The notes under the pieces: model-generated
Databases searched by the model: none
Seen by the model: only the letters and a program-made list of their open reading frames with translations
What the model was told of the DNA's origin: nothing
NCBI GenBank assembly: GCA_964016885.1
Contig: OZ024763.1
Location: forward strand, 3,224,001-3,288,000
From: Eledone cirrhosa
Lineage: Eukaryota
DNA length: 64,000 bases
Direction: 5' to 3'
Shown: positions 40,668 through 63,122 of the stretch, piece after piece
How the letters are laid out: every line of letters starts with the position of its first letter
Numbering within the stretch: position 1 is the first letter of the stretch
Program-made: the position numbers and the translations under genes

Positions 40668-41333
40668 CTAGAAAAGAAGATTTTATTTTAGATTATAAAA
40701 ATTAAAAAAAAAATAATAATGAAAATTATTGTGTACAGTGCTCAGGTGCACTACAACTAATCAAAGGTGCATGTATAGTACATAGAACAATGTACAAATG
40801 TCAGGAAAGTGAACAATGTATGAGCCAGGATATACACACAGACAGACACACATGTGTACATCTATATATCATCATCATCATCATCTTACGTCTGCTTTTC
40901 CCTGCTTGCAAGGGTGGGACGGGACCTATTCAGCACATCATCTCTCCACTTGTCACGGTCCTTCGTCATCTACTGTGTGAGCTTCAGCAATCTGAGGTCT
41001 GCTCTCACCATCTCCGCCCATGTTTTTCGTGGTCTCCCTTCTACTGGGATTTCTTGGCACTTCTTTACCCAGCGGTCATCCTCCATGCTATAATAAATCT
41101 TTGAAGGAATTTCACCAGTCCAGCCTCCTGTCATTTTACTCAATAATAATTAACTCCGTTCTTGCACCAACAACAAGATTAAACATCGAAGATGGATGAG
41201 TTGCATAACGTTGAGGGCTTTACCTAATATTACATCACGGTTGACTATACAGAATGACCAGTTCTATCCAGTGGTGAACCACCAAACTTAAATGTATAGC
41301 TATATATATATATATATATTAAACGTTAAAAAA

Positions 41334-41410
41334 TATTTCATTCTGATGAGCGATTTCAGATGTCTGTGTTGAGCTCGTCTGTCTTTGTGAAACCTTTGGT
41401 AAATGGAATA
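41334..41410 (+). ncRNA. Type I hammerhead ribozyme motif, family A
   Basis: tatttcatt-CTGATGA-stem II (gcga...ttgt)-GAAA-cc ttt gg-TA-aatggaata; 9-bp stem I with one G.U; predicted cut after 41401. Confidence 0.75.
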
Positions 41411-41438
41411 ATTGTCTTATGTTGTTTATTACATAACT

Positions 41439-41488
<50 letters not shown>

Positions 41489-41928
41489 AATATATGAAAA
41501 AATGGCGTGCTGCATGGTTGCAAATGGATTACATATGAATAAATTTAGTCCTTCATCAGTGATCTTCCAACCTTCATTGGTATTTCATTGCTTTAAAGAC
41601 CATATACCTCCGGTTGGTGCGAGCAACGGCTAAAGAAAGTCGTTGGGACACGTAAATAAGGGGAACGAGCGAGACAGTAAACAATCAAAGATGGTAATGC
41701 AACGAAAAGTGAGGAAGGAGGAGTCAAGTCGAAATGTGAGCAAGGAAAGAATTTCGCACAGGTCAAACGGGAGGAAGAAGGAGTCAAGTCCCTGAAATCG
41801 ATGAATATAAGTTCTGTGAAATCGTAGACGAGAGAGAATAAAGACCATACGACCATATGAGAAAGGGAGAGAGAGACTAACTATACATGGAGAAAGATAG
41901 ACTATATATAGAGAGAGAGGTACTTTAC

Positions 41929-41997
41929 CTGGATGCAGGCTTCATCTTTACACTGCTGGACAGCATTTTCCAGAATAATCTGCCGTTTTTCAAGTAC
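41929..41997 (-). CDS. RSKR: RSKR-like kinase exon, alphaC helix (VLEKRQIILENAVQQCKDEACIQ)
   Basis: 69 nt, canonical splice sites; QCKxE..IQ motif. Confidence 0.93.
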
Positions 41998-42505
41998 CTG
42001 CAAGAAAGTACAATATTTAGGACCACAACCAAAAATGGACCCCCCCCCCCCTGTCATTCCGTTTGAAAAAGTGATGTTCTAGAAAGAAGCAATTACATCA
42101 GATATATATATGATCGGATGTAGTCACTTATATTCATATCGGCTTAAAATTTGAGTATATATATATATATATATATATCATCATCATCATCGTTTAATGT
42201 CCATCTTCCACGCTAGCATGGGTTAGACGGAAATTGTCTCACTTGAGGCAAGATTGGTCGGGTGATCATGTCTCGCCCGTATAGGACTGTATCTGGCAGG
42301 TTTTCTACGGCTGGATGCTCTTCCTAACACCAACCACATTACAGCGTGGACTGTGTATTTTTTTGTCGTGATACCTACACAACCTCATTAGTTTGGACTA
42401 GATGTTGTGGTACCAACATAACTTTATAGAGAAAGGGTGATGTTGGCGGGAGTGGGAGGATGGAGCAGGGGTAGTGGGTTGGGGTGTATGTTGGTAAACA
42501 CCTAC

Positions 42506-42589
42506 CTTAACAGCATAGAACTGCTTTTCATCATCTCTGTGGACTTTCAAGACATTCCCATAAGCTCCTTTGGCAATTACTGATATTAA
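42506..42589 (-). CDS. RSKR: RSKR-like kinase exon, Gly-rich loop and beta3 Lys (LISVIAKGAYGNVLKVHRDDEKQFYAVK)
   Basis: 84 nt, canonical splice sites; AKGxxG loop as in RSKR, AVK motif. Confidence 0.93.
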
Positions 42590-43267
42590 CTGAAAAGAAG
42601 GGTTCAGGATTCATTGGTGAAATCTATATATAAATTTGAGAGACTTCTGTCTGTCTGTCACACAATGTGTGTAAGTGTGTTTGTGTGAATGTATGTCTGT
42701 GAGTGTGTATTATTGTAAGTGTATCTGTTTATATTTATATACACATTTATATTTATATACTCATACATATAAATGAATGTATATGCACACATACACACAG
42801 ACACACATATAAACATACACATCAGTGTGTTAAAAAAAACCTAGTTCTTTAAAAGACACTAAAACAAATCAAAGGTCATCATCATCATCATCATCGTTTA
42901 ACATCTATCTTCCACGCTAGCATGGGTTAGACGGGTCATCTCTATTATTTCAGGTGAACCAAACAGAATTAAGATTTTACCAAAATATAAACACATTTAT
43001 TTCAACATAATACTGTGCTATCAAAGTACAAAGGCCAGTTGATAAGTTAATAGGCTGACTATGAAGGAGTGTGATGCTAGAGCTGTGAAATCTCGTATGC
43101 CATTAATTTCAACTCTTCTTCTTAATAACTGTATTGTTTCTTTCTAGGAACTATGTTGAAAAAAAAAACACCTCATTTGGTCATTCCATGAGAGTATCTT
43201 GATCAGACTATCAACTTTTTAGCTGACTCTCATGCATGTGTGTGTGTATATATATATATATAAAATA

Positions 43268-43344
43268 AATTTCATTCTGATGAACAATTTCAGACGTCTG
43301 TGTTGAGCTTGTCTGTCTTCGTGAAACCTTTGGTAAATGGAATA
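43268..43344 (+). ncRNA. Type I hammerhead ribozyme motif, family A copy 2
   Basis: CTGATGA 43277-43283, GAAA 43323-43326, GTA site 43333-43335. Confidence 0.7.
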
Positions 43345-43529
43345 ATTGTCTTATGTTGTTTATTACATAACTATATATATATATTTCGTTTCTGAATTTG
43401 TTTAGCAACATGACCCTCCCAAAGTATAACAATATATATATATATATATATATATTCACACACATATATATATATATATACACAGATATCATTTCTATAT
43501 AAATATATATCAATATTTTATAGAGAAAT

Positions 43530-43580
43530 GGCTCCTACAGGACTAGAACTGTTTCATTCATTTGAAATCATCAGGAACCT
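43530..43580 (-). ncRNA. Hammerhead motif, family B (imperfect stem I)
   Basis: intact core and stem III; more degenerate copies at 5565-5616 and 50880-50926. Confidence 0.55.
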
Positions 43581-43832
43581 GTGGTACAGATATTACAGGC
43601 AAAAAACCAACCGACAGAAGACTCAGGGGTAGACTCTGAGCAAGATGGTTGGATAACATCTATGAGCAACAATATTTATTTAGTTAACCTTCAGCACGCT
43701 GTGGACGACAAATTATGACAAGAGAGTATTCTCCCCTTAATACATAATACAGTGTCAAGGGAAGTAATTCATAAAAATAATTCAGCATGCTAAATGTTAA
43801 CGAAATGTTGTTTTATTAAAATAAGTTCTTAC

Positions 43833-44033
43833 CTCAAAGTTTTGATCTTCCAGCTCTCCTCGGACACAGAACTCTGGAAAGAACAAAGTCTCAGACAACG
43901 GAACCGGAGTTTGAGTTTTTTCTCTCTTCCTGTGGAAATGTCCATCGTTAACATCATTAATGGATGCTAATCTGGCTAATCGGGCAGAACTTCGAGATTT
44001 TCCTCGAACAAGTAACGAATCAACCAAAAATGT
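43833..44033 (-). CDS. RSKR: RSKR-like kinase exon (TFLVDS...LFFPEFCVRGELEDQNFE)
   Basis: 201 nt, cttcag acceptor and gtaaga donor; LFxPEF motif that precedes the kinase domain in RSKR. Confidence 0.85.
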
Positions 44034-44411
44034 CTGAAGATAGAAAAACAATAGGAAAAAGAAAAAAAAAAGAATTATCACTTGTAAATTTAAAACTCTT
44101 CAGGGTATATATTGATGACCAAAAGGGGTCTTTTTTTATAGACACACACACACACATATATATATACATATATATTCTTCTTCTTTCTTCTCACTTTCTG
44201 TTGCTTAAACCATTTTGTTTGTTCACCCTAACGTTCTCCTTATTTACGTGTCCCAACGACTTTTTTTAGCCTTTGTTCGCACCAACCTGAGGTATATGGC
44301 CCTTAAAGCGATGAAATGCCTAGGACGGTTGGAGGGTCACTGATGAAGGACTCACTTTTTCATATATATACATATATATATATACATACATATATATATA
44401 TCTTCATCAGA

Positions 44412-44484
44412 ACGTTCTGATGAACGATTTCAGATGACTGTGTCGAGCTCGTCTGTCTTCGTGAAACCTTTGGTAAATGGAATA
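44412..44484 (+). ncRNA. Type I hammerhead ribozyme motif, family A copy 3
   Basis: CTGATGA-acga...tcgt-GAAA-cctttggTA; stem I 5' strand replaced by a short inversion. Confidence 0.65.
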
Positions 44485-44507
44485 ATTGTCTTATGTTGTT
44501 TATTACA

Positions 44508-44547
<40 letters not shown>

Positions 44548-45481: not shown

Positions 45482-48400
45482 TCATCATCATCATCATCAC
45501 CGTTTTACGTCCGCTCTTCCACGCTAGCATGGGTTAGACGGGTTGTCCTGTTGTGGGCAGTGTCTGGTCGGCTGACCATGCCTTGCTCATACAGGAACTG
45601 ATCTGGCTTGATTTCTACAGCTGGATGCCCTTCCTAACACCAACCTCATTTACAGTGAGTGCTGGGTGCTTTTTCGTGGCGCCTACACGTCCACTTTACA
45701 GTGTGGGCTGGGTGCTTTTTTGCCGTGGCACCTCCACGACCACCTTGCGGTGGGGGGGGGGGGGGGCATATTGTTTATATGCTTCAGCATGTACCCATGG
45801 GAGGTCGGGTACCCTGTATTACTGCGTGACGCCAGAAGTCACGGTCGTGTGTCATTGACTTTGAGAGGTGTAGTTGGGTAAGGTCGGCTTTTATCACCTC
45901 ATCCCAAGTCATCTTGGGTCTCCCCACTCCGCGGTTTCCATCAACTTCTAGTGCTCTGCACCTTTTTATGCAGCTGTCATCCTTCATACGCATCACATGT
46001 CCATACCAGCGTAACCGCCTCTCCTGCACGCAGCATTTGATTCCTCTTATGCTCAGTCTCTCTCTCAATTCATTTATGCTTTGTCGTTCACGTATATTAC
46101 TGTTACACATCCATCGGAGCATGCAGGCTTCGTTTCTCTCTAATCTACGTAAGTCTTCCACCTTCAGCGCCCAGGTCTCACTACCATGCAACATCGCTGT
46201 TCGGATACACGCATCATACAGTCTGCCTTTCATTCTGAGGGAGAAGCCTTTTGCAGCTAGCAGTGGTAGTAGTTCCCTAAACTTCTTCCATCCCGTTCTT
46301 ACCCTAGTTATTGTACTTTCTGAGCACCCACCTCCGTTGCTAATTCGGTCACCTAGGTAGCAGAAGCTGTCTACTGTTTCTACAGGGCCCTCCCAGAGAT
46401 TGGTGGTACTTGTTTCCTGTGGCTGTTTGCTTGCTGTTTCAGCACAGCTGCTGCATGTGAATCCTACATTCTTAATTAAGCTTCCTGAGATCCCGCTACA
46501 TCTCTTGTGTACCCATTGTTTGCATTTGGGGCAAAGAATGGAGTTCCTACCTACACCTTTCCTACATACTGAGCAAGGCCATTTCCCTGAGGGGATCTGG
46601 GTTCTGTTTTCTCGTCTACTTATAAGGACCTTAGTCTTTGTCATGTTGACTTTGAGGCCCTTTCTCTCTAGTCCCTGCTTCCAGGTTTGGAATTTATTCT
46701 CTAGTTCTACCATAGATTCAGCTATGAGTGCGAGGTCATCAGCATACAGGAGTTCCCATGGGCATCCGGTCTTAAACTCCTCCGTTATTGCCTGCAGGAC
46801 TATGATGAACAGGAGAGGGCTAAGAACAGAGCCCTGGTGGACCCCAACCTGTACGCTAAATTCCTCGCTATACTCATTGCCAATCCTAACTTTGCTGACT
46901 GCTCCCCTATACATGGCTTGTACCGCTTTCACAAGCCATTCATCTACTCCTAGTTTTCTAAGAGCCCACCAGATTACTGCACGTGGAACTCTGTCAAAGG
47001 CTTTCTCAAGGTCGACAAATGCCAAGTAGAGTGGCTTACTTTTAGCTAGGTACTTTTCCTGTAATTGCCTCACAAGGAAGAGCGCATCAGTGGTGCCTTT
47101 CCCTGGAACAAACCCAAATTGCATCTCGTCTATATTCACCCGGTCCCTAATCAGCTGTGCTATAACTCTTTCTGTTACTTTCATGACCTGGTCCATCAAC
47201 TTTATACCTCTATAGTTTCCTCTATCTAGTGCATCGCCTTTACCTTTGTAGCAGTTGACAATGATGCTACTGCACCAATCTTTTGGTATGGCCCCCTCTA
47301 GTATTACCTGGTTAACGATACGTGTGGTTATAGTGTGACCTACAGACCCAGATGCCTTCAGCATCTCGGCAGCTATACCCGATGGACCGGTTGCCTTCCC
47401 TATCTTCATATCTCTGATTGCCTTACTTACTACGCTGCCGCTGACTTGTACTGCTGGTCCCTCTATAGGGTCTACGTGGGGTAGGGTCTCTTCTTCCCAT
47501 GCATTCTCCTCATTTAGTAATCTATCATAATGACTCTTCCATGCATCTTTCTTCTCAGCACTTGTGAGGGCAAGCTCACCTTTATCATTCCGGATACACT
47601 TCTCTCCAATGACATCACAACTATCTCTGACACACTGCCTCGCAATCTTGAATACCTCCTGTTTCTGGTCCTCACGTTGTAAAACATGCTTGAATTTTCT
47701 ATCCTCTGCTTCCCTCCTAGCTAAGTATACTTGTCGCCTAGCTTCCCTCTTGGTCTCTATGTAATGTACCCTGCTCCCCCCGTTCTTCCATTCTTTCCAT
47801 GCCTGTCTCTTGGCCTTGACTGCTTCATCTACCTTATTGTTCCACCACCAAGTCACTCTCCTCCTGCTTGAGGTCTTACTCCAGCCACAAACCTCATCCG
47901 TCGCCTCTAGTAAGTTATTTTTTAGGAACTCCCAGTTCTCTTCTACGTTAAATGTCTCTATCTGTTCTTCTTTACTGTCGTAGGCGTTGAGTAAAATATC
48001 TTTAAATCTGTTACTGGTTGAGGGGACTTTCAGCTTCCAGATCTTTCTTCTCCAGGTTGGCCTCTGTTTCAGGGCTCGTCTAGTTCTGACCGTGAGGTCG
48101 CTGACAACTAAGCTATGTTGGGATGTACATTCCTCACTAGGGAAGGCTTTTGTGTTTACGACCGTCCATCTGTCACGTCCTCTGATGAGGATAAAATCTA
48201 ACTGACTAGAGTGCTCCCCTGATCTATAGGTGATCAGGTGGTTGTCGGGTTTTTTAAAGTTTGTGTTACATATCGACATGTCATTGGCGTCGCAGAATTC
48301 TAGAAGTCTGAATCCTTCCTCATTCCTTGTGCCAACTCCATGGCCTCCATGTACTCTATTGAAGCCGTCGCAGTGTTTACCTACGTGTCCGTTAAAATCT

Positions 48401-48582
48401 CCTGCAATGATTAGGAAGTCCTTGTCGTCTGTTAGAGCAGTAGTGTGTATTAGGGACTCGTAAAACCTATCCTTAAGTTCGTCTGGCAGCCCCGATTGGG
48501 GTGCGTAAGCTGATATTATTGTGGTAATTGTCTTATTCAGGACTAGTCTGAGTTTAATTTCTGTTATTTCTGTTTACCTTTT
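45482..48582 (-). mobile_element. RTE-clade non-LTR retrotransposon, 5'-truncated, young, in RSKR intron 1
   Basis: stop-free frame from about 48558 to 45784 with APE (SAYAPQ, GDFNGHVG), RT (QGSVLSPLLF, YADD) and a Cys/His finger; 3' UTR ending in a (GAT)n tail. Confidence 0.95.
45784..48558 (-). CDS. RTE APE-RT polyprotein (N-terminally truncated, about 924 codons)
   Basis: 831-aa ORF in the track extends upstream in frame without stops. Confidence 0.9.
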   Translation of the reverse strand: MKLRLVLNKTITTIISAYAPQSGLPDELKDRFYESLIHTTALTDDKDFLIIAGDFNGHVGKHCDGFNRVHGGHGVGTRNEEGFRLLEFCDANDMSICNTNFKKPDNHLITYRSGEHSSQLDFILIRGRDRWTVVNTKAFPSEECTSQHSLVVSDLTVRTRRALKQRPTWRRKIWKLKVPSTSNRFKDILLNAYDSKEEQIETFNVEENWEFLKNNLLEATDEVCGWSKTSSRRRVTWWWNNKVDEAVKAKRQAWKEWKNGGSRVHYIETKREARRQVYLARREAEDRKFKHVLQREDQKQEVFKIARQCVRDSCDVIGEKCIRNDKGELALTSAEKKDAWKSHYDRLLNEENAWEEETLPHVDPIEGPAVQVSGSVVSKAIRDMKIGKATGPSGIAAEMLKASGSVGHTITTRIVNQVILEGAIPKDWCSSIIVNCYKGKGDALDRGNYRGIKLMDQVMKVTERVIAQLIRDRVNIDEMQFGFVPGKGTTDALFLVRQLQEKYLAKSKPLYLAFVDLEKAFDRVPRAVIWWALRKLGVDEWLVKAVQAMYRGAVSKVRIGNEYSEEFSVQVGVHQGSVLSPLLFIIVLQAITEEFKTGCPWELLYADDLALIAESMVELENKFQTWKQGLERKGLKVNMTKTKVLISRRENRTQIPSGKWPCSVCRKGVGRNSILCPKCKQWVHKRCSGISGSLIKNVGFTCSSCAETASKQPQETSTTNLWEGPVETVDSFCYLGDRISNGGGCSESTITRVRTGWKKFRELLPLLAAKGFSLRMKGRLYDACIRTAMLHGSETWALKVEDLRRLERNEACMLRWMCNSNIRERQSINELRERLSIRGIKCCVQERRLRWYGHVMRMKDDSCIKRCRALEVDGNRGVGRPKMTWDEVIKADLTQLHLSKSMTHDRDFWRHAVIQGTRPPMGTC

Positions 48583-56196: not shown

Positions 56197-56471
56197 TTAA
56201 GGCATCTGTAAGGACTTGGCCAGCAGGGCAGCGAGGGCTTGGTCAACATCTCCATTAGATCGTTGCAGTTCATCGAGAACTTGTTGTCTTTCAAAGCCGT
56301 ACGCCATCAGTCGTAGCATGGCTTCCTCAGGGACTTGTTGAGTGGCGGGAGAAGAAGGAGGAGGAGGAATGTGAGGAGCCGGAGGAGGAGGTGATGAAAC
56401 TGTATCTGAAGGGTTCGAAGTTGAGGTGGAGCAGGTGCCAAGGTTCCGACTAGAAACCAAAACTTGTTTTG
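56197..56471 (-). CDS. DDI2: DDI1/2-like protease terminal exon with UBA domain (…[45 protein letters not shown])
   Basis: phase-1 acceptor matches the upstream donor; xGF loop and NGD...A...L UBA pattern; TAA stop. Confidence 0.88.
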
Positions 56472-56557
56472 CTGAAATTAAAATGAAAAGAAAAAAGTTT
56501 TCAGAAAAAATTCTTAAAATAATAAACAATCTTTTAATGAAACTAAACCCATACTCC

Positions 56558-56752
56558 AGCCACACTCAGTCCGGTCAAGCCACACTCAGTCCGGCCATGC
56601 CACACTCAGTCCGGTCAAGCCACACTCAGTCCGGTCAAGCCACACTCAGTCCGGTCAAGCCACACTCAGTCCGGTCAAGCCACACTCGGTCCGGCCATGC
56701 CACACTCGGTCCGGCCTGCCACACTCGGTCCGGCCATGCCACACTCAGTCCA
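56558..56752. repeat. 20-bp GC-rich minisatellite filling most of the last DDI intron
   Basis: gccacactcagtccggtcaa about x10. Confidence 0.92.
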
Positions 56753-56795
56753 GTAAAATTACTCTCACTCCAGTGCAAAGGGAGATAATCCTCAC

Positions 56796-56985
56796 ATGAT
56801 GCCTCCTCAGCAGACTTAGCTAAGGCCTCAGCTAACTGTTGGTCCTCACTCTCCATAGAAGCTGAAGATGGTCTCTGTAAGAGGTTCAGTCGAGCGTGTT
56901 CCGGAAGTTCTGATTCACTGAGAAAAGGTGTCTCTGTTCCTGTCGTACCAATAACTAATACATTTCGTTTTAAATCTATTGAACA
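56796..56985 (-). CDS. DDI2: DDI1/2-like protease exon, RVP end and UIM ([16 protein letters not shown]...ELPEHARL...[18 protein letters not shown])
   Basis: 190 nt; CSIDL..N.L.IGTTG motif then a UIM-like helix. Confidence 0.92.
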
Positions 56986-57094
56986 CTGGAAATAGAAAAT
57001 ATATGTAAATATGGGTTATATCGAATAATAATCTTATATATATATTGATTGGAGAACTGCGAGACTGTGTCCAGTTTATTATTTTGCATATATA

Positions 57095-57290
57095 GGGGCA
57101 GTGGATTGGCAGTATCGGTAGAGTGTCGGACGCCATGCTTTGACGCATAGAGTTACGGTCCTTGCCATTCTGAGTTCAAATCCCGCCGAGGTTAACTTTG
57201 CCTTTCATCCTTACGGGGTCGATAAAATAAAGTGCCAGTAATGCACTGGGTAATTGATGGCTTTGTGCCAAAAGTAGAAACAATTATTTT
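57095..57290 (+). mobile_element. tRNA-derived SINE (MetaSINE-like central domain)
   Basis: A-box-like tggcagtatcggt, B box gagttcaaatcc, gcctttcatccttacggggtcgataaa core; copies at about 9330-9465, 9600-9780, 37195-37390, 49560-49755, 62545-62985. Confidence 0.8.
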
Positions 57291-57467
57291 GCATATATAT
57301 ACACATATTAAATTAAAAATAAAAAGTTGAATGACATATATATCTAAAATAAACACATCAAACAATTACAGGGGATAATTTGTAAAGAGTGTAAACACAC
57401 CTAGTTACGGAGGTAACATATTAAAAATTAACAAGAACCTTGAATTCAGATACCTTGCAATAATGAT

Positions 57468-57497
<30 letters not shown>

Positions 57498-57498
<1 letters not shown>

Positions 57499-58100
57499 GG
57501 TGGCTGCCAACTCGTTTTCGAGTACGGCCACTACTTTATATCCATGTAGGAGAACCCCTACCGATGCGCTGAACGAGAGTGACTTTTCAGTCCAGCCAGC
57601 GACTTGAAAACTCTGGTACAAACACTACATTTGTGACAATTGTTGACACATAGTGCTGGGCCCATAGTACCATGTGACGACAAGTGCAGAGAGATCTCCA
57701 GATATAAAGCAATGCCTGTGCCGTGAAGCTTTTATAGTGAACAAAGGCACTGCACAAAGCCAGTCCCACTCTCTTAACCAAGATGATATTTACCAAAAAG
57801 AAGAACAAGTCAACATCATTGGATACCATCAGGGTTGCAGGTGTTATATCAGAGTTTTCCTTCTCCTAGAATTCTGCCTTGACAAAAGCTAAGGGGTCAT
57901 CTCTCCCGGTGATTTTGGATGACCATTGACTCTTAAGAGCTCCTTTGCCATGTTTTGTTTTTAGTCCTGCAGGATGTCCAAAGTCACACTCCTCACCAAG
58001 AAACTTTGGTGGGGTTGCCAGTTTAGTCGCCAACGACACGACCATGAGACAGGTTGTACTGGGATACATGTTACCAGTAGCACCAACTGGTGACCTGACA
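57498..58100 (-). mobile_element. Short non-autonomous LINE derivative with zinc-finger-like 3' end
   Basis: matches 4369-4847 (+), which encodes [14 protein letters not shown]; both are flanked by (TA)n. Confidence 0.65.
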
Positions 58101-58166
58101 TAAATATATATATATATATATATATACATATATACACATTATATACATATCATATTATATACACAC

Positions 58167-58270
58167 CTGATGTCGTCTTAACATATCCAGTCCTAATAAC
58201 ATATCCACAGGTTGATCTTCCAATATTGAGAAGGAAGACTGAAGAAAATCAGGACCAATTTGTATTTGAC
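58167..58270 (-). CDS. DDI2: DDI1/2-like protease exon ([34 protein letters not shown])
   Basis: 104 nt; MLLGLDML motif. Confidence 0.96.
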
Positions 58271-58629
58271 CTAAAAATATAGTTAACAGAGAGCATTACA
58301 GTGGTGATGGTGGTGGTGGAGGTGGTGGTGATGTATGGTGTTGGTGGAGGCGGCGGTGATAGTTAATAGAGAGCATTACAGTGGTGTGGTGTATTGGCGG
58401 TGGTGGGTGTGATGATAGTTAATAGTGAACATTATAGTGGTATGGTGATGGTGGTGGTGTATTGTAGTGGTGGTGTGTATGGTGATGGTGGCAGCATAGT
58501 CAACAGAGAACATTATAGTGGTGTGGTGGTGATGTAATGTATTGTGATGGTGGGTGGTGGGGGGTGCATGGTGGTGATGGTGCTGTATTGTGGTGGGGGG
58601 TGCATGGTGGTGGTGGATATGTGTGTGTG

Positions 58630-58661
<32 letters not shown>

Positions 58662-59099
58662 TGCAGAGTGGGCAGACCCAAGAAGACCTGGGATGAGGTG
58701 ATAAAAGCCGACCTTACCCAATTACACACGACCGTGGCTTCTGGCGTCACGCAGTAATACAGAATACCCGACCTCCCATGGGTACAAGCCGAAGCTGAAG
58801 CATATAGACAATATGCTCCCACGCGCTCCACTGCAAAAAAGCACCCAGCCCACACTGTAAAGTGGATGTGTAGGCGTCTCGGAATAAAAACCACCCAGCA
58901 CTCATTGTAAATGAGGTTGGTGTTAGGAAGGGCATCCAGCTGTAGAAATCAAGCCAGTTTCCATATGAGCAAGGCATGGTCAGCCGATTGGACACTGCCC
59001 ACAACAGGACAACCCGTCTAACCCATGCTAGCGTGGAAGAACAGACATAAAACGGTGATGATGATGATGACATGTACCTAACCACACTCCAGTACTCAC

Positions 59100-59228
59100 C
59101 TAAATGTACTCTTCCAATAATCTTCTGTGTACCAACACCTTTCGCTATCCCTGCCCATCGATTGTCTACAAGTCGCATAATGTTGCAACGTTCTGCACAC
59201 GACTGACTCATGATGGTCATCTGAGCAC
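59100..59228 (-). CDS. DDI2: DDI1/2-like protease exon ([42 protein letters not shown])
   Basis: 129 nt; highly conserved RVP segment. Confidence 0.97.
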
Positions 59229-59254
59229 CTGGTGGAATAGAAATAATACAACAC

Positions 59255-59535
59255 TGAGTACCTGATGTCCATCAGAGCACCTGGTGATCAACAGAGCACC
59301 TGATGATCAACAGAGCACCTGATGATCAACAGAGCACCTGATGATCAACAGAGCACCTGATGATCAACAGAGCACCTGATGGTCAACAGAGCACCTGATG
59401 GCCATCAGAGCACCTGATGGCCATCAGAGCACCTGATGGTCAACAGAGCACCTGATGGTCAACAGAGCACTTGATGGTCAACAGAGCACCTGATGGTCAA
59501 CAGAGCACCTGATGGTCAACAGAGCACTTGATGGA
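59255..59535. repeat. 19-bp minisatellite copied from the adjacent DDI splice acceptor and exon start
   Basis: minus-strand unit aggtgctctgttgaccatc versus the true junction ag|gtgctcagatgaccatc. Confidence 0.92.
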
Positions 59536-59699
59536 ATGGAAACAATTTGGTAAAACTAAAATATTTTTTATGTTTGTTGAAGAAGGCCAGGTTGGAAACT
59601 AAAGGGTTAAGGGCTGAAACACTCACTTGAGGAGGGTTTCTTTTCTGAAGAGCTTCTGCTGTCCAGTTCTCCTGACAGTTTCTTAACACTATATATAAG

Positions 59700-59939
59700 T
59701 TAACCCTTTCATGACCACATTTCTAATGAAATATACTTTATTTTAATTAATTAATGAAGAATTTTGAGGAATTTACTAAAATTATTAATTATTTCATTAC
59801 TAAGATTGTAACTTAATGTAAGGTTCTTATATAAAATTATGTTGGAAGATTTTAATTTAATTTGGAAACCTTTAAAATGGGTGATTTTATTTCATAGAAC
59901 CAGAGCTGGTTTTGACCAGGTTGGTAACTAAAGGGTTAA
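59700..59939. mobile_element. Second piggyBac-type MITE family
   Basis: TTAA-CCCTTT...AAAGGG-TTAA; copies at 8124-8348, 38461-38690 (partial) and 13158-13285 (partial). Confidence 0.75.
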
Positions 59940-59961
59940 AGAAATGTTGAAATGATGTTAC

Positions 59962-60089
59962 CAGAGTCTACAAATGCCTTCACAGGATGACCGTTCACTT
60001 TACAGTCGATGTACAACATGTGGACTTGACCAAAACTTTCGGGGGCAAACTCCATAGCCGTCTCCATGTTAGTTTCAACATTTTTTAGT
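59962..60089 (-). CDS. DDI2: DDI1/2-like protease exon with catalytic Asp (…[29 protein letters not shown])
   Basis: 128 nt; retroviral-like protease DSG active site. Confidence 0.97.
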
Positions 60090-60174
60090 CTGTCAAAGTA
60101 AAAAAAGAAAATATTAAATTAACTTAATAAAATTAGATCAAATCAGACATTAAATAACTGCATTTTTTAATAAT

Positions 60175-60780
60175 AATGAACAAGGAAGCCTGCGCAGTGC
60201 CCTCTACATATGAATGGAGTTCCACTGAAGCAGGTTGAGAAGTTCAAGTACCTCGGGGTCGTGTTCCCGAGTGATGGAAGGTAGGAGACTGAATTAAGTG
60301 CAAGGATTGCAGGAGCTGGTGCAGTAATGTACCAGCTTCAGGATTCAGTAATCAGAAGAAGGTAGGTTGGTGTAAAAACCAAACTCGCTATTTGGTATTC
60401 ATGCCAACTCTTACCTATGATCATGAATTTTGGGTAATGACTGAAAGAATACGATTACGAATACAAGCAGCCAAAGTGGGATTCCTCCAAATGGAGTAAC
60501 TTTACTCGATAGAGTGCATAGTTTGGAGATCAGAGAGTCACTCCAGGTAGAGCTGTTACTTCTCCAAATTGAGAGATCACAGCTCCGATACTATGGACAT
60601 GTGGTTAGAATGTCTCAGGAAAGAATCGCTGGACAGATTTTACAGCCAAAACAAACTAGCAGGAAACCCAGAGGCAGACCCCGAACAAGATGGTTGTATA
60701 ACATCCATGAGCTTGGCTGGTCTCGCTTGGGGATCCAGCGGAATCAATTGGAAATGGTTGCTACTGACAGGACCCTTTGA
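60175..60780 (+). mobile_element. Decayed RTE-like LINE 3' fragment in a DDI intron
   Basis: VEKFKYLGV, QLRYYGHVVRM, PRGRPRTRW; same family at 6875-7400 (-), 7530-7690 (-), 9985-10270 (+), 37700-38240, 43590-43670. Confidence 0.8.
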
Positions 60781-60981
60781 ACTGAAACCGGTAAAAGACA
60801 TACAAGAATGTGGTGCCCCAGCATGGCCACAGTCTAATGACTGAAACCAGTAAAAGAATATAAAAAGATTTGGTGCCCCAACATGGCCACAGTCTAATAA
60901 CTGAAATCAGTAAAAGAATATAAAAGAATGTGGTGCCCCAGCATGGCCACAGCCTCAGTAAAAGACATAAAAGCAAATTAC

Positions 60982-61108
60982 CGAATTTCTTCCGCTATCA
61001 TTTTCTGAACCTCTGGACTGAAGGGATTTGCTGACATTAGTCGCATCCTTTCTTCAGCTTTCTCCATCCTCTCACTTTGTTGTTGTCGAAACACCTCAGA
61101 AAATTTCT
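60982..61108 (-). CDS. DDI2: DDI1/2-like protease exon (EKFSEVFRQQQSERMEKAEERMRLMSANPFSPEVQKMIAEEIR)
   Basis: 127 nt, HDD C-terminal helix motif, frame-consistent. Confidence 0.93.
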
Positions 61109-61209
61109 CTGAAAATCAAAGAAAACAACAAGAAAACATTTTAAAAACGTTTTCAATATGAAATCTAGATTATAATAACTATATCTTCTTCATCATTTAA
61201 TGTCTATTT

Positions 61210-62212
61210 TTACACCTTTTACAGGGTGGACTTATTGCTATGGGACCAGCTCGACCACTTTACAGGGTGGACTGGGTGGTTTTAGCCATGAAAGCTACAC
61301 TACCACCTTACAGTGTGGACTGGGTGCTTTTTGTCATGTTACCAGCACACCCACCATTCAGGGTGGACTGGATCGTTTTAGACATATCACCAGCACAACC
61401 ACTTTACAGGTTGGAAGAGGTGCTTTTTGTTGTGAGACCTACACGATCACTTTACAGTGTGGACTGAGTGTTTTTTGCCGTGTCACCAGCACCACATTAC
61501 AGTGTGAACTGGGTACTTTTTACCATGTCTCCAGTATGACCACCTTACAGGATGAACTGAGTGCTTTTTGCCATATCACCAACACAACCGCCTAACAACA
61601 TGGACTGGGTGCTTTTTGTTGTGGCACCGCATTGACCACATTACAGTGTGGACAGGGTCTTTTTGCCATGTCACCAGCACAACCACCTTACAGGATGGAT
61701 TAGGTGCTTTTTGCATGTCACCAGCACAACCACCTTACAGGATGGATTGGGTGCTTTTTGCGTGTCACCAACACAACCACCTTACAGGATGGATTGGGTG
61801 CTTTTTGCATGTCACCAGCACAACCACCTTACAGGATGGATTGGGTGCTTTTTGTTGTCACCAGCACAACCACCTTACAGGATGGATTGGGTGCTTTTTG
61901 CATGTCACCAGCACAACCACCTTACAGGATGGATTGGGTGCTTTTTGCCATGTCACCAGCACAACCACCTTACAGGATGGATTGGGTGCTTTTTGCTGTG
62001 TCACCAGCACAACCACCTTACAGGATGGATTGGGTGCTTTTTGACGTGTCACCAGCACAACCACCTTACAGGATGGATTGGGTGCTTTTTGCCATGTCAC
62101 CAGCACAACCACCTTACAGGATGGATTGGGTGCTTTTTGACGTGTCACCAGCACAACCACCTTACAGGGTGGATTGGGTGGTCTTTGCTGTGTAACCAGT
62201 ACAACCACTTTA
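61210..62212. repeat. ~48-bp minisatellite derived from the RTE/SINE 3'UTR internal repeat
   Basis: gccatgtcaccagcacaaccaccttacaggatggattgggtgcttttt; homogeneous 61650-62212, diverged upstream. Confidence 0.9.
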
Positions 62213-62274
62213 TGTAGACAAAACAGTGAGGAGTTGGTGGAGATTTAAATAAACAAAAGAAAGAATCTCAATAC

Positions 62275-62502
62275 CCAAACTTCCGCTGACCAAGGCCTCA
62301 GCCAAGGGGGGATTCCTCTCCTTTAAAAGGGCCAGTTCATGTGGATTACTGAGGAACATATCTCGCACAACTTTGGGATCATCCATGAAACTTGCTCCAC
62401 CACCTTGCCCTTGACTGCTTGACTGTCCTGCAGAAGAGGTCTGGGGTAGAGAGCCAACTCCAGGGATTTGGATACTGCCAAAATCAATCACAGGAGCTGA
62501 TC
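62275..62502 (-). CDS. DDI2: DDI1/2-like protease exon, linker and HDD (SAPVIDFGSIQIPG...DDPKVVRDMFLSNPHELALLKERNPPLAEALVSGSL)
   Basis: IDFxSI.PG and NPHELxLLKERNPPLAEAL are characteristic DDI motifs; canonical splice sites. Confidence 0.93.
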
Positions 62503-63122
62503 CTGAAAAATATGAAGGAAAAAATAAGGGTTTAATAATAATAATAATGGTTTCTTATATAGGCACAAGGCCAGCAATTTTAGGGGAGGGGAAAGTCGAT
62601 TAAATCGACCTCAGTGCATTACTGGTACTTTACTTTATCAATCCTGTAAGGATGAAAGATAAAGCTAACATTGGTGAGATTTGAGCTCAGAATGTAAAGG
62701 GCCGTAACTCTATGCCGCGAAGCATGTTGTCCGACGCTCTACCGATTCGTTTCTATTAGCTTCTGTTCATTTAATGGTTTCTGATTTAGGCACAAAGCCA
62801 GCAAATGTTTTTTGGGGGCAGGGAGGGGAAAGTCAATTAAATCGAGCCCAGTGCATTACTGGTACGTTATTTTATCAACCCCCATGAGGGGAAAGGCAAA
62901 GTTAACCTCGGCTGGGATTTGAACTCAGAACGAAAAGGGCTGTAACTCTATGCCACAAAGCATGGTGTCCAATGCTCAACCGTTTTGTTTTTATTAGCTT
63001 TTGTTCATTAAATATTTGTTTATGTCTTTTAACTTTTACTAATTTTAATTATATGAAAACAAAGAATGATGAGACCATTATTGAACTAAAAGACTTGGCT
63101 TGGTTCATTCCAAACATATTTT

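What the first reader, a model, noticed from the sequence alone, without database searches (positions are those of the whole stretch)
41334..44484. Three intronic type I hammerhead ribozymes (family A) with an extended stem II
Seen: full core (CUGAUGA, GAAA, GUA site), up to 9-bp stem I, 3-bp stem III with a UUU loop, and a long two-part stem II (acga/tcgt, cagacg/cgtctg) whose variants often keep G.U pairs. The copies share a downstream tail and are clustered within 3.2 kb, antisense to RSKR. Known: type I hammerheads occur in metazoan PLEs and retrozymes. Inference: a short non-coding hammerhead-bearing repeat family, possibly undescribed, able to cut antisense transcripts.
Basis: partly seen in the sequence, partly recalled or inferred. 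Interest (0 to 1): 0.75.

Follow-up and report, generated by a model that had tools for sequence, protein, structure and literature searches.

The report
Penelope retrotransposon stumps carrying hammerheads
These are three ordinary, roughly 100-base leftover ends of a Penelope-type jumping gene, each carrying that gene's predicted self-cutting RNA motif and sitting backwards in an intron of a kinase gene, where they are likely decaying without a function.

Summary
The three hammerhead motifs are real: cores at 41343, 43277 and 44417, antisense in three successive introns of a minus-strand kinase gene. They are not an undescribed non-coding family. They are 5'-truncated 3' ends (pLTR) of a Hydra-clade Penelope-like retrotransposon inserted in (TA)n. 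In two genomic loci this hammerhead's 3' half runs through a ~63-nt tail into a decayed RT/endonuclease ORF. Sister subfamilies keep intact 714-aa ORFs between two hammerheads; these fold like telomerase RT plus GIY-YIG and carry the Hydra motifs. 13 of 25 sampled insertions are head-to-head pairs with the tail on one arm, the known Penelope footprint. The family has at least 731 copies, and related motifs number 16,175 (3 in control). Stems covary between subfamilies. Within this family the G.U 'conservation' is CpG decay, and the core decays like flanking DNA. Only copy 1 keeps a plausible fold; cleavage and expression are untested. New in detail: a long, subfamily-specific stem II that Rfam misses. 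Unexplained: three same-strand copies in 3.2 kb, none in 200 kb of flank. Earlier scan notes report other Penelope-linked hammerheads in this genome, none on this family.

The parts
41328..41437 (+). Copy 1: 5'-truncated PLE 3' end (starts about 15 nt before the core, no tail), full type I hammerhead; core 41343, predicted cut after 41401, stem I 9 bp, G.U at 10.1-11.1
43258..43371 (+). Copy 2: 5'-truncated PLE 3' end (about -20, no tail); core 43277, predicted cut after 43335, stem I 8 bp, A.C mismatch in the base of stem II
44414..44511 (+). Copy 3: 5'-truncated PLE 3' end cut inside stem I (4 bp left, no tail); core 44417, predicted cut after 44475
44403..44413 (-). 11-nt inverted piece of the same element joined head-to-head to copy 3; forms a fold-back that outcompetes stem I
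   Evidence: sequence; MFE hairpin; P(stem I)=0.0
41438..41495 (.). (TA)n target tract at the 3' end of copy 1; copies 2 and 3 also end in (TA)n
43833..44033 (-). Host kinase exon between copies 2 and 3 (gene name RSKR recalled, not tested)
42506..42589 (-). Host kinase exon (subdomains I-II)
   Evidence: weak Pfam Pkinase match E=0.041; splice sites
41929..41997 (-). Host kinase exon between copies 1 and 2

Best explanation
The three copies are 5'-truncated 3' ends of a Hydra-clade Penelope-like retrotransposon, each likely made when the element's own RT/GIY-YIG protein nicked a (TA)n tract and copied only the last ~100-115 nt of its RNA. In the whole element the hammerhead lies in the pLTR just upstream of a ~63-nt tail and the ORF (shown). 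Reverse transcription is inferred to start at one of two sites, 36 and about 99 nt downstream of the cut site, both ending in TA-like bases that match the target; this accounts for tail-less and tailed ends and for head-to-head pairs. Because the ends lie past the cut site, the template was likely uncut or re-ligated. The hammerhead was under selection in active master elements (inferred from covariation between subfamilies) and would cleave weakly, probably as a dimer or with protein help. The inserted stumps decay neutrally and, being antisense to the kinase pre-mRNA, would not cut it.
For: (1) Family hammerhead 3' half + tail + ORF start are contiguous in L095 and L154 (2 of 30 loci read, most others ending in TA or belonging to sister subfamilies). 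L154 also has a full family hammerhead 4.7 kb downstream on the same strand. (2) 7 of 25 ORF-start loci carry a hammerhead core within 330 nt upstream. Five fetched intact sister elements have hammerhead-tail-ORF(713-718 aa)-hammerhead, spacing 4.1-4.7 kb. The intact ORF is 72-79% identical to the family's decayed ORF in L095. (3) Model pLDDT 94: best matches are telomerase RTs (Foldseek E 1.3e-8; Z 15.9, rmsd 3.5, 301 aligned). The C-terminal domain matches I-TevI GIY-YIG (Z 9.1, rmsd 2.3, 89 aligned), then T4 EndoII and UvrC. (4) Hydra motifs in 117 aligned proteins: RW[KR] 115, [AS]DK[TS] 116, CxCx(4-6)C 116, CxxC-type 112, CxH 114, as defined in PMC8557442. (5) 30 loci in coordinate order = 25 sites: 13 head-to-head pairs, all with the tail on exactly one arm; 6 singles with tail, 2 without, 3 short at the 3' end, 1 complex; nearly all end in (TA)n. 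(6) Across 6 subfamilies 63 of 66 stem cells pair, shuffles mean 49.3, max 58 of 5000. (7) Neutral decay in the family: core 17/490 vs downstream 38/957 substitutions, p=0.77; 26 of 38 cores intact. (8) Published Hydra hammerheads share the 3-bp stem III with a TTT loop and A at the cut site (File S2 of PMC8557442). Two RT start sites explaining the tail, and a protein-assisted, dispensable hammerhead, were shown for another PLE (PMC11167929).
Against: No intact ORF of this exact subfamily was seen among the 150 of 13,591 candidates scored; both family 5' junctions hold only the 3' half of the hammerhead. No tree with published Hydra proteins was built. The elements are longer (4.1-4.7 kb) than the <3 kb typical of Hydra. 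No Pfam or PDB sequence hit supports the RT, and Foldseek alone missed the GIY-YIG fold. The covariation count includes 12 stem III cells imposed by my pattern, excludes pair 10.1-11.1, does not correct for relatedness, and includes one subfamily (L094) not linked to a Hydra ORF. Random insertion does not explain three same-strand copies in 3.2 kb (chance 2e-4 to 2e-3 genome-wide under uniform placement; none in 200 kb of flank).
Confidence: 0.93

Rival explanations
1. A non-autonomous, non-coding retrozyme-like family with its own short RNA, mobilised in trans by a PLE.
For: Most copies are short and non-coding; the family's own ORFs found are all broken; hammerhead tandem arrays of other families exist in this genome (L094); animal retrozymes derive from PLE pLTRs (preprint 10.64898/2026.07.22.740005).
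Against: No fixed 5' end: truncation runs from inside the ribozyme to more than 1 kb upstream. Only 2 of 132 locus records (one site) hold two same-strand full copies, and no tandem array of this family was seen. Direct continuity with the ORF.
Confidence: 0.04
2. PLE-derived but co-opted: the three antisense copies are kept to cut or end antisense transcription through the kinase gene.
For: Same orientation, three successive introns, all cores intact, improbable clustering.
Against: Copies differ from each other at 4-5 of 96 positions, mostly at CpG sites, as neutral copies do. Copy 3 has lost stem I to truncation, copy 2 has a stem II mismatch, and the active fold is 4-11 kcal/mol above the MFE in all three. 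26 of 38 unbiased family copies have intact cores anyway.
Confidence: 0.03

Closest known systems
Hydra-clade Penelope-like elements, including Hydra-1_Obim (Craig et al. 2021, PMC8557442; passages and supplement part 2 read)
   Same: C-terminal GIY-YIG, RWK, DKT, CxCX5C, CxxC, CxH motifs, (TA)n target, type I hammerhead in the pLTR with a 3-bp stem III, inverted 5'-truncated copies, tail at one end
   Different: Hammerhead sequence unlike Hydra-1_oBim by eye; 39 nt between the core boxes (sisters 25-52) against about 11-26 in the listed Hydra hammerheads by my reading; longer elements (4.1-4.7 kb) and tail (about 63 nt against 30-40)
PLE min-HHRs (Cervera and de la Pena 2014, PMC4209133; parts 1-2 of 4 read)
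   Same: Mostly single dispersed motifs from truncated PLEs, pairs on opposite strands, enlarged helix II, weak helix III suited to dimers
   Different: Has a small helix III; pair 10.1-11.1 is G.U (66) or A-U (22) of 97, G-C in only 2; two-part stem II
PAc Poseidon PLE of Anolis (Frangieh et al. 2024, PMC11167929; parts 1-2 of 4 read)
   Same: Two fixed 3' ends bounding a tail, downstream of the hammerhead; AT-rich target
   Different: Other clade; here both ends carry TA-like bases matching the target, and the hammerhead lies upstream of the ORF start rather than overlapping it
Metazoan non-LTR retrozymes (Cervera and de la Pena 2020, PMC7229834, passages read; preprint 10.64898/2026.07.22.740005, part 1 of 5 read)
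   Same: Type I hammerhead in a repeat of PLE ancestry
   Different: Not tandem, no unit length, joined to an ORF

Membership tests
Type I hammerhead | Core CUGANGA, GAAA and NUH in type I order | tested here: met
   All three copies
Type I hammerhead | Stems I-III supported by covariation | tested here: met
   Between subfamilies 63/66 paired vs shuffle max 58 (with caveats); none within the family
Type I hammerhead | Active fold favoured in these copies as monomers | tested here: inconclusive
   Fold 4-11 kcal/mol above MFE; stem III hairpin +0.4, homodimer -5.1 kcal/mol; z -1.70, 0.01, -1.66
Type I hammerhead | Match to an Rfam hammerhead model | tested here: not met
   None at gathering score or E<=10; likely due to the long stem II; not a defining biological feature
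Type I hammerhead | Self-cleavage | not testable with these tools
   Needs an assay
Penelope-like element | Telomerase-like RT in a single ORF | tested here: met
   Intact sister ORF folds closest to TERT; family ORF 72-79% identical to it
Penelope-like element | GIY-YIG endonuclease, C-terminal | tested here: met
   Residues 555-714 match I-TevI, Z 9.1, rmsd 2.3, 89 aligned
Penelope-like element | pLTR with hammerhead on both sides of the ORF | tested here: met
   Five intact sisters; L154 for this family, 5' hammerhead partial
Penelope-like element | Inverted 5'-truncated copies and tail at one end only | tested here: met
   13 of 25 sites
Hydra clade | RWK and DKT (not DKG) motifs | tested here: met
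   115 and 116 of 117 proteins; both read in L095
Hydra clade | CxCX5C linker; CxxC and CxH around the conserved E and N | tested here: met
   116, 112, 114 of 117 with slightly relaxed patterns; exact in L142
Hydra clade | CCHH motif absent from the endonuclease | tested here: inconclusive
   Not seen by eye in the conservation line; not aligned to canonical PLE endonucleases
Hydra clade | (TA)n insertion | tested here: met
Hydra clade | Falls in the Hydra clade in an RT tree; no IFD | not tested
   Published Hydra proteins were not available as tool sequences
Non-LTR retrozyme | Tandem units of fixed length, each with a hammerhead, no ORF | tested here: not met

The most novel reading that the evidence does not exclude
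This genome holds a radiation of at least 16,000 Hydra-PLE hammerheads whose stem II is long, often two-part and rewritten in each subfamily while core, stem III and tail stay fixed, so stem II may act as a subfamily-specific handle for the element's protein; and the same-strand triple here may record one RNP priming at several neighbouring (TA)n tracts in a single event.
Probability: 0.12. Interest if true: 0.55.

Novelty: new member of a known kind. Interest (0 to 1): 0.2.

Why it matters
Mainly as a correction: dispersed intronic hammerheads of this sort are transposon debris, not regulatory RNAs. Of modest use to specialists: Rfam misses these long-stem-II hammerheads, so their numbers in such genomes are likely undercounted; and a young sister subfamily with intact ORFs (95.6-99.3% identical among 7 copies) offers a system to test Hydra-clade priming and the still unclear role of PLE hammerheads.

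Tried and rejected
Rfam: no hammerhead. Pfam and PDB sequence searches on the ORF: nothing significant; Foldseek on the endonuclease alone: no match at E<=0.001. Walking upstream for the ORF gave only over 1 kb of microsatellite-rich 3' UTR broken by other insertions; the ORF lies downstream of the tail. MITE with terminal inverted repeats: rejected, since arms differ in length and the tail is on one arm only. Local duplication as the cause of the cluster: rejected, flanks differ and exons lie between the copies. Excess of (TA)n targets as the cause: 42 tracts per 10 kb at 40-45 kb against 33 in the flanks, too small. No RNA holder listed. Alignment A2 held one wrongly cut row and was not used. 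Lunse et al. (PMC5785218) was not held; seen only as cited in PMC6765202 (passages). PMC13282606 (passages) reports Penelope-like families in an octopus with 0 mentions of hammerhead. Paper searches showed no description of this family; Repbase/Dfam libraries and unseen supplements could hold it. A sequence look-up of earlier scan notes found nothing.

Full report
Observation. They were the only type I hits of my two-strand scan of the window. Stem I is 9, 8 and 4 bp. The copies lie in three successive introns of a minus-strand protein kinase gene (exons 44033-43833, 42589-42506, 41997-41929, 40667-40595), so they are antisense to it. The gene name RSKR and the octopus-like origin are recalled or taken from earlier notes, not tested. 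Rfam reports no hammerhead.

The family. The own genome (3.0 Gb) has 731 exact matches to a 27-mer of the motif against 0 in the control; a DNA search had 1,388 candidates, 40 scored. I read the first 30 matches in coordinate order, which are 25 sites. Of these, 13 are head-to-head pairs, each with a ~63-nt tail on exactly one arm; 6 are singles with tail, 2 singles without, 3 are short at the 3' end and 1 is complex. Nearly all end in (TA)n. Of 40 arms, 35 begin within 40 nt upstream of the core or inside the ribozyme, so the window copies (about -15, -20, -2, no tail) are typical; copy 3 has an 11-nt inverted piece. Longer copies run over 1 kb upstream through microsatellite-rich sequence. 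This is the PLE insertion anatomy described in PMC8557442.

The parent element. In L095 the 3' half of this hammerhead and the tail continue directly into a broken RT ORF. In L154 the same junction is followed by a decayed ORF, a 3' UTR and a full family hammerhead 4.7 kb further on. These were 2 of 30 loci read for that junction. Of 25 ORF-start loci, 7 carry a hammerhead core just upstream, with other stem II sequences. A protein search had 13,591 candidates, 150 scored, many with open frames of 711-719 aa. Five fetched intact elements show hammerhead-tail-ORF-UTR-hammerhead at 4.1-4.7 kb spacing; they belong to a sister subfamily whose protein is 72-79% identical to the L095 ORF. No intact ORF of the window's own subfamily was seen. 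The sister protein gave no Pfam or PDB sequence hit. Its model (pLDDT 94) matches telomerase RTs best, and its last 160 residues match the GIY-YIG domains of I-TevI (Z 9.1, rmsd 2.3, 89 aligned), T4 EndoII and UvrC, though Foldseek alone missed this. RWK, DKT, CxCX5C, CxxC and CxH motifs are near-universal in 117 aligned proteins and are the Hydra-clade diagnostics. Hydra elements target (TA)n, carry type I hammerheads, some with the same 3-bp stem III and TTT loop, and include an octopus family with a different hammerhead.

Is the ribozyme selected? Between subfamilies, yes. A general pattern finds 16,175 motifs against 3 in the control; stem II differs wholesale yet mostly folds as a hairpin. 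Across the 6 of 13 clusters with three or more distinct copies, 63 of 66 stem cells pair against a shuffle mean of 49.3 and a maximum of 58. Caveats: 12 cells are imposed by the pattern, pair 10.1-11.1 was left out, relatedness is not corrected, and one cluster is not linked to a Hydra ORF. Within the family, no. Among 98 distinct full copies, the 38 reached through upstream-only queries show CpG C>T 22/151 against G>A 16/151 in stems (p=0.39; all 98: 51/390 against 38/391, p=0.14) and core substitutions 17/490 against 38/957 downstream (p=0.77); 26 of 38 cores are intact and mean identity to the majority is 94%. The G.U pairs are CpG decay. Pair 10.1-11.1 is G.U or A-U, not the canonical G-C. 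In the window the active fold lies 4.9, 4.2 and 10.6 kcal/mol above the MFE; only copy 1 forms stems I and III with good probability (0.74 and 0.84, falling to 0.35 and 0.47 in wider context); copy 3's stem I is replaced by the fold-back. Stem III is unstable as a hairpin (+0.4) and modestly stable as a dimer (-5.1 kcal/mol).

Mechanism. Shown: position of the hammerhead in the pLTR, two fixed 3' ends 36 and about 99 nt past the cut site, (TA)n target, RT and GIY-YIG folds. Inferred, by analogy with the Anolis PLE studied in vitro (PMC11167929): nicking of both strands in (TA)n, priming at two internal RNA sites, early termination, joining of arms. Since both ends lie beyond the cut site, the template was uncut or re-ligated; in that study the hammerhead was protein-assisted and not needed for insertion. 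PLE hammerheads cleave poorly in vitro and mostly as dimers (PMC4209133). The stumps are antisense, so the kinase pre-mRNA would not be cut. Expression and cleavage are untested.

Unexplained. Three same-strand copies in 3.2 kb, none in 200 kb of flank, is unlikely under uniform insertion (2e-4 to 2e-3 genome-wide). Flanks differ and target density is ordinary. Among the first 100 listed matches only one same-strand neighbour pair lies within 5 kb. A local burst of insertions is my guess; co-option is not excluded but has no support.

Verdict. A new family of a known kind: truncated pLTR ends of a Hydra-clade PLE. The long, subfamily-specific stem II is a small novelty; long stem II regions are also listed for a plant PLE in the same supplement. 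Interest 0.2.

Noticed in passing
window 44171-44365 (+) and 41533-41713 (-): Two copies (82% identical) of another repeat with GAAA ahead of CTGATGA, resembling the scrambled-order hammerheads in earlier scan notes; the minus-strand copy is sense to the kinase pre-mRNA. One MFE fold each gave no clear hammerhead.
   Followed up: partly
L094:761-7115 and L141:1036-1577: Tandem arrays (about 530 and 541 bp period) of a type I hammerhead with a 51-52 nt stem II and palindromic stem III: retrozyme-like.
   Followed up: partly
L138-L143, L151: Young Hydra subfamily with intact 713-718 aa ORFs, 95.6-99.3% identical among 7 copies; possibly recently active.
   Followed up: partly
window 56200-62554 (-): Exons of a DDI1/DDI2-like gene (Pfam Ddi2_HDD E=3e-15, weak UBA) upstream of the kinase gene on the same strand.
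   Followed up: no
window 45787-48573 (-): 929-codon open frame of a LINE-like endonuclease/RT, judged by eye.
   Followed up: no
window 43386-43431: Short fragment of another (TA)n-nested repeat right after copy 2; the same fragment flanks family copies in L004, L016 and L059.
   Followed up: no
G000:C2:142032410-142328047: Nine family matches spaced about 15-25 kb apart in two oppositely oriented groups, likely segmental duplication.
   Followed up: no
G000:C1 against small chromosomes: C1 holds 60 of the 731 matches in 443 Mb (0.14/Mb against 0.24/Mb overall), so the family is denser elsewhere.
   Followed up: no
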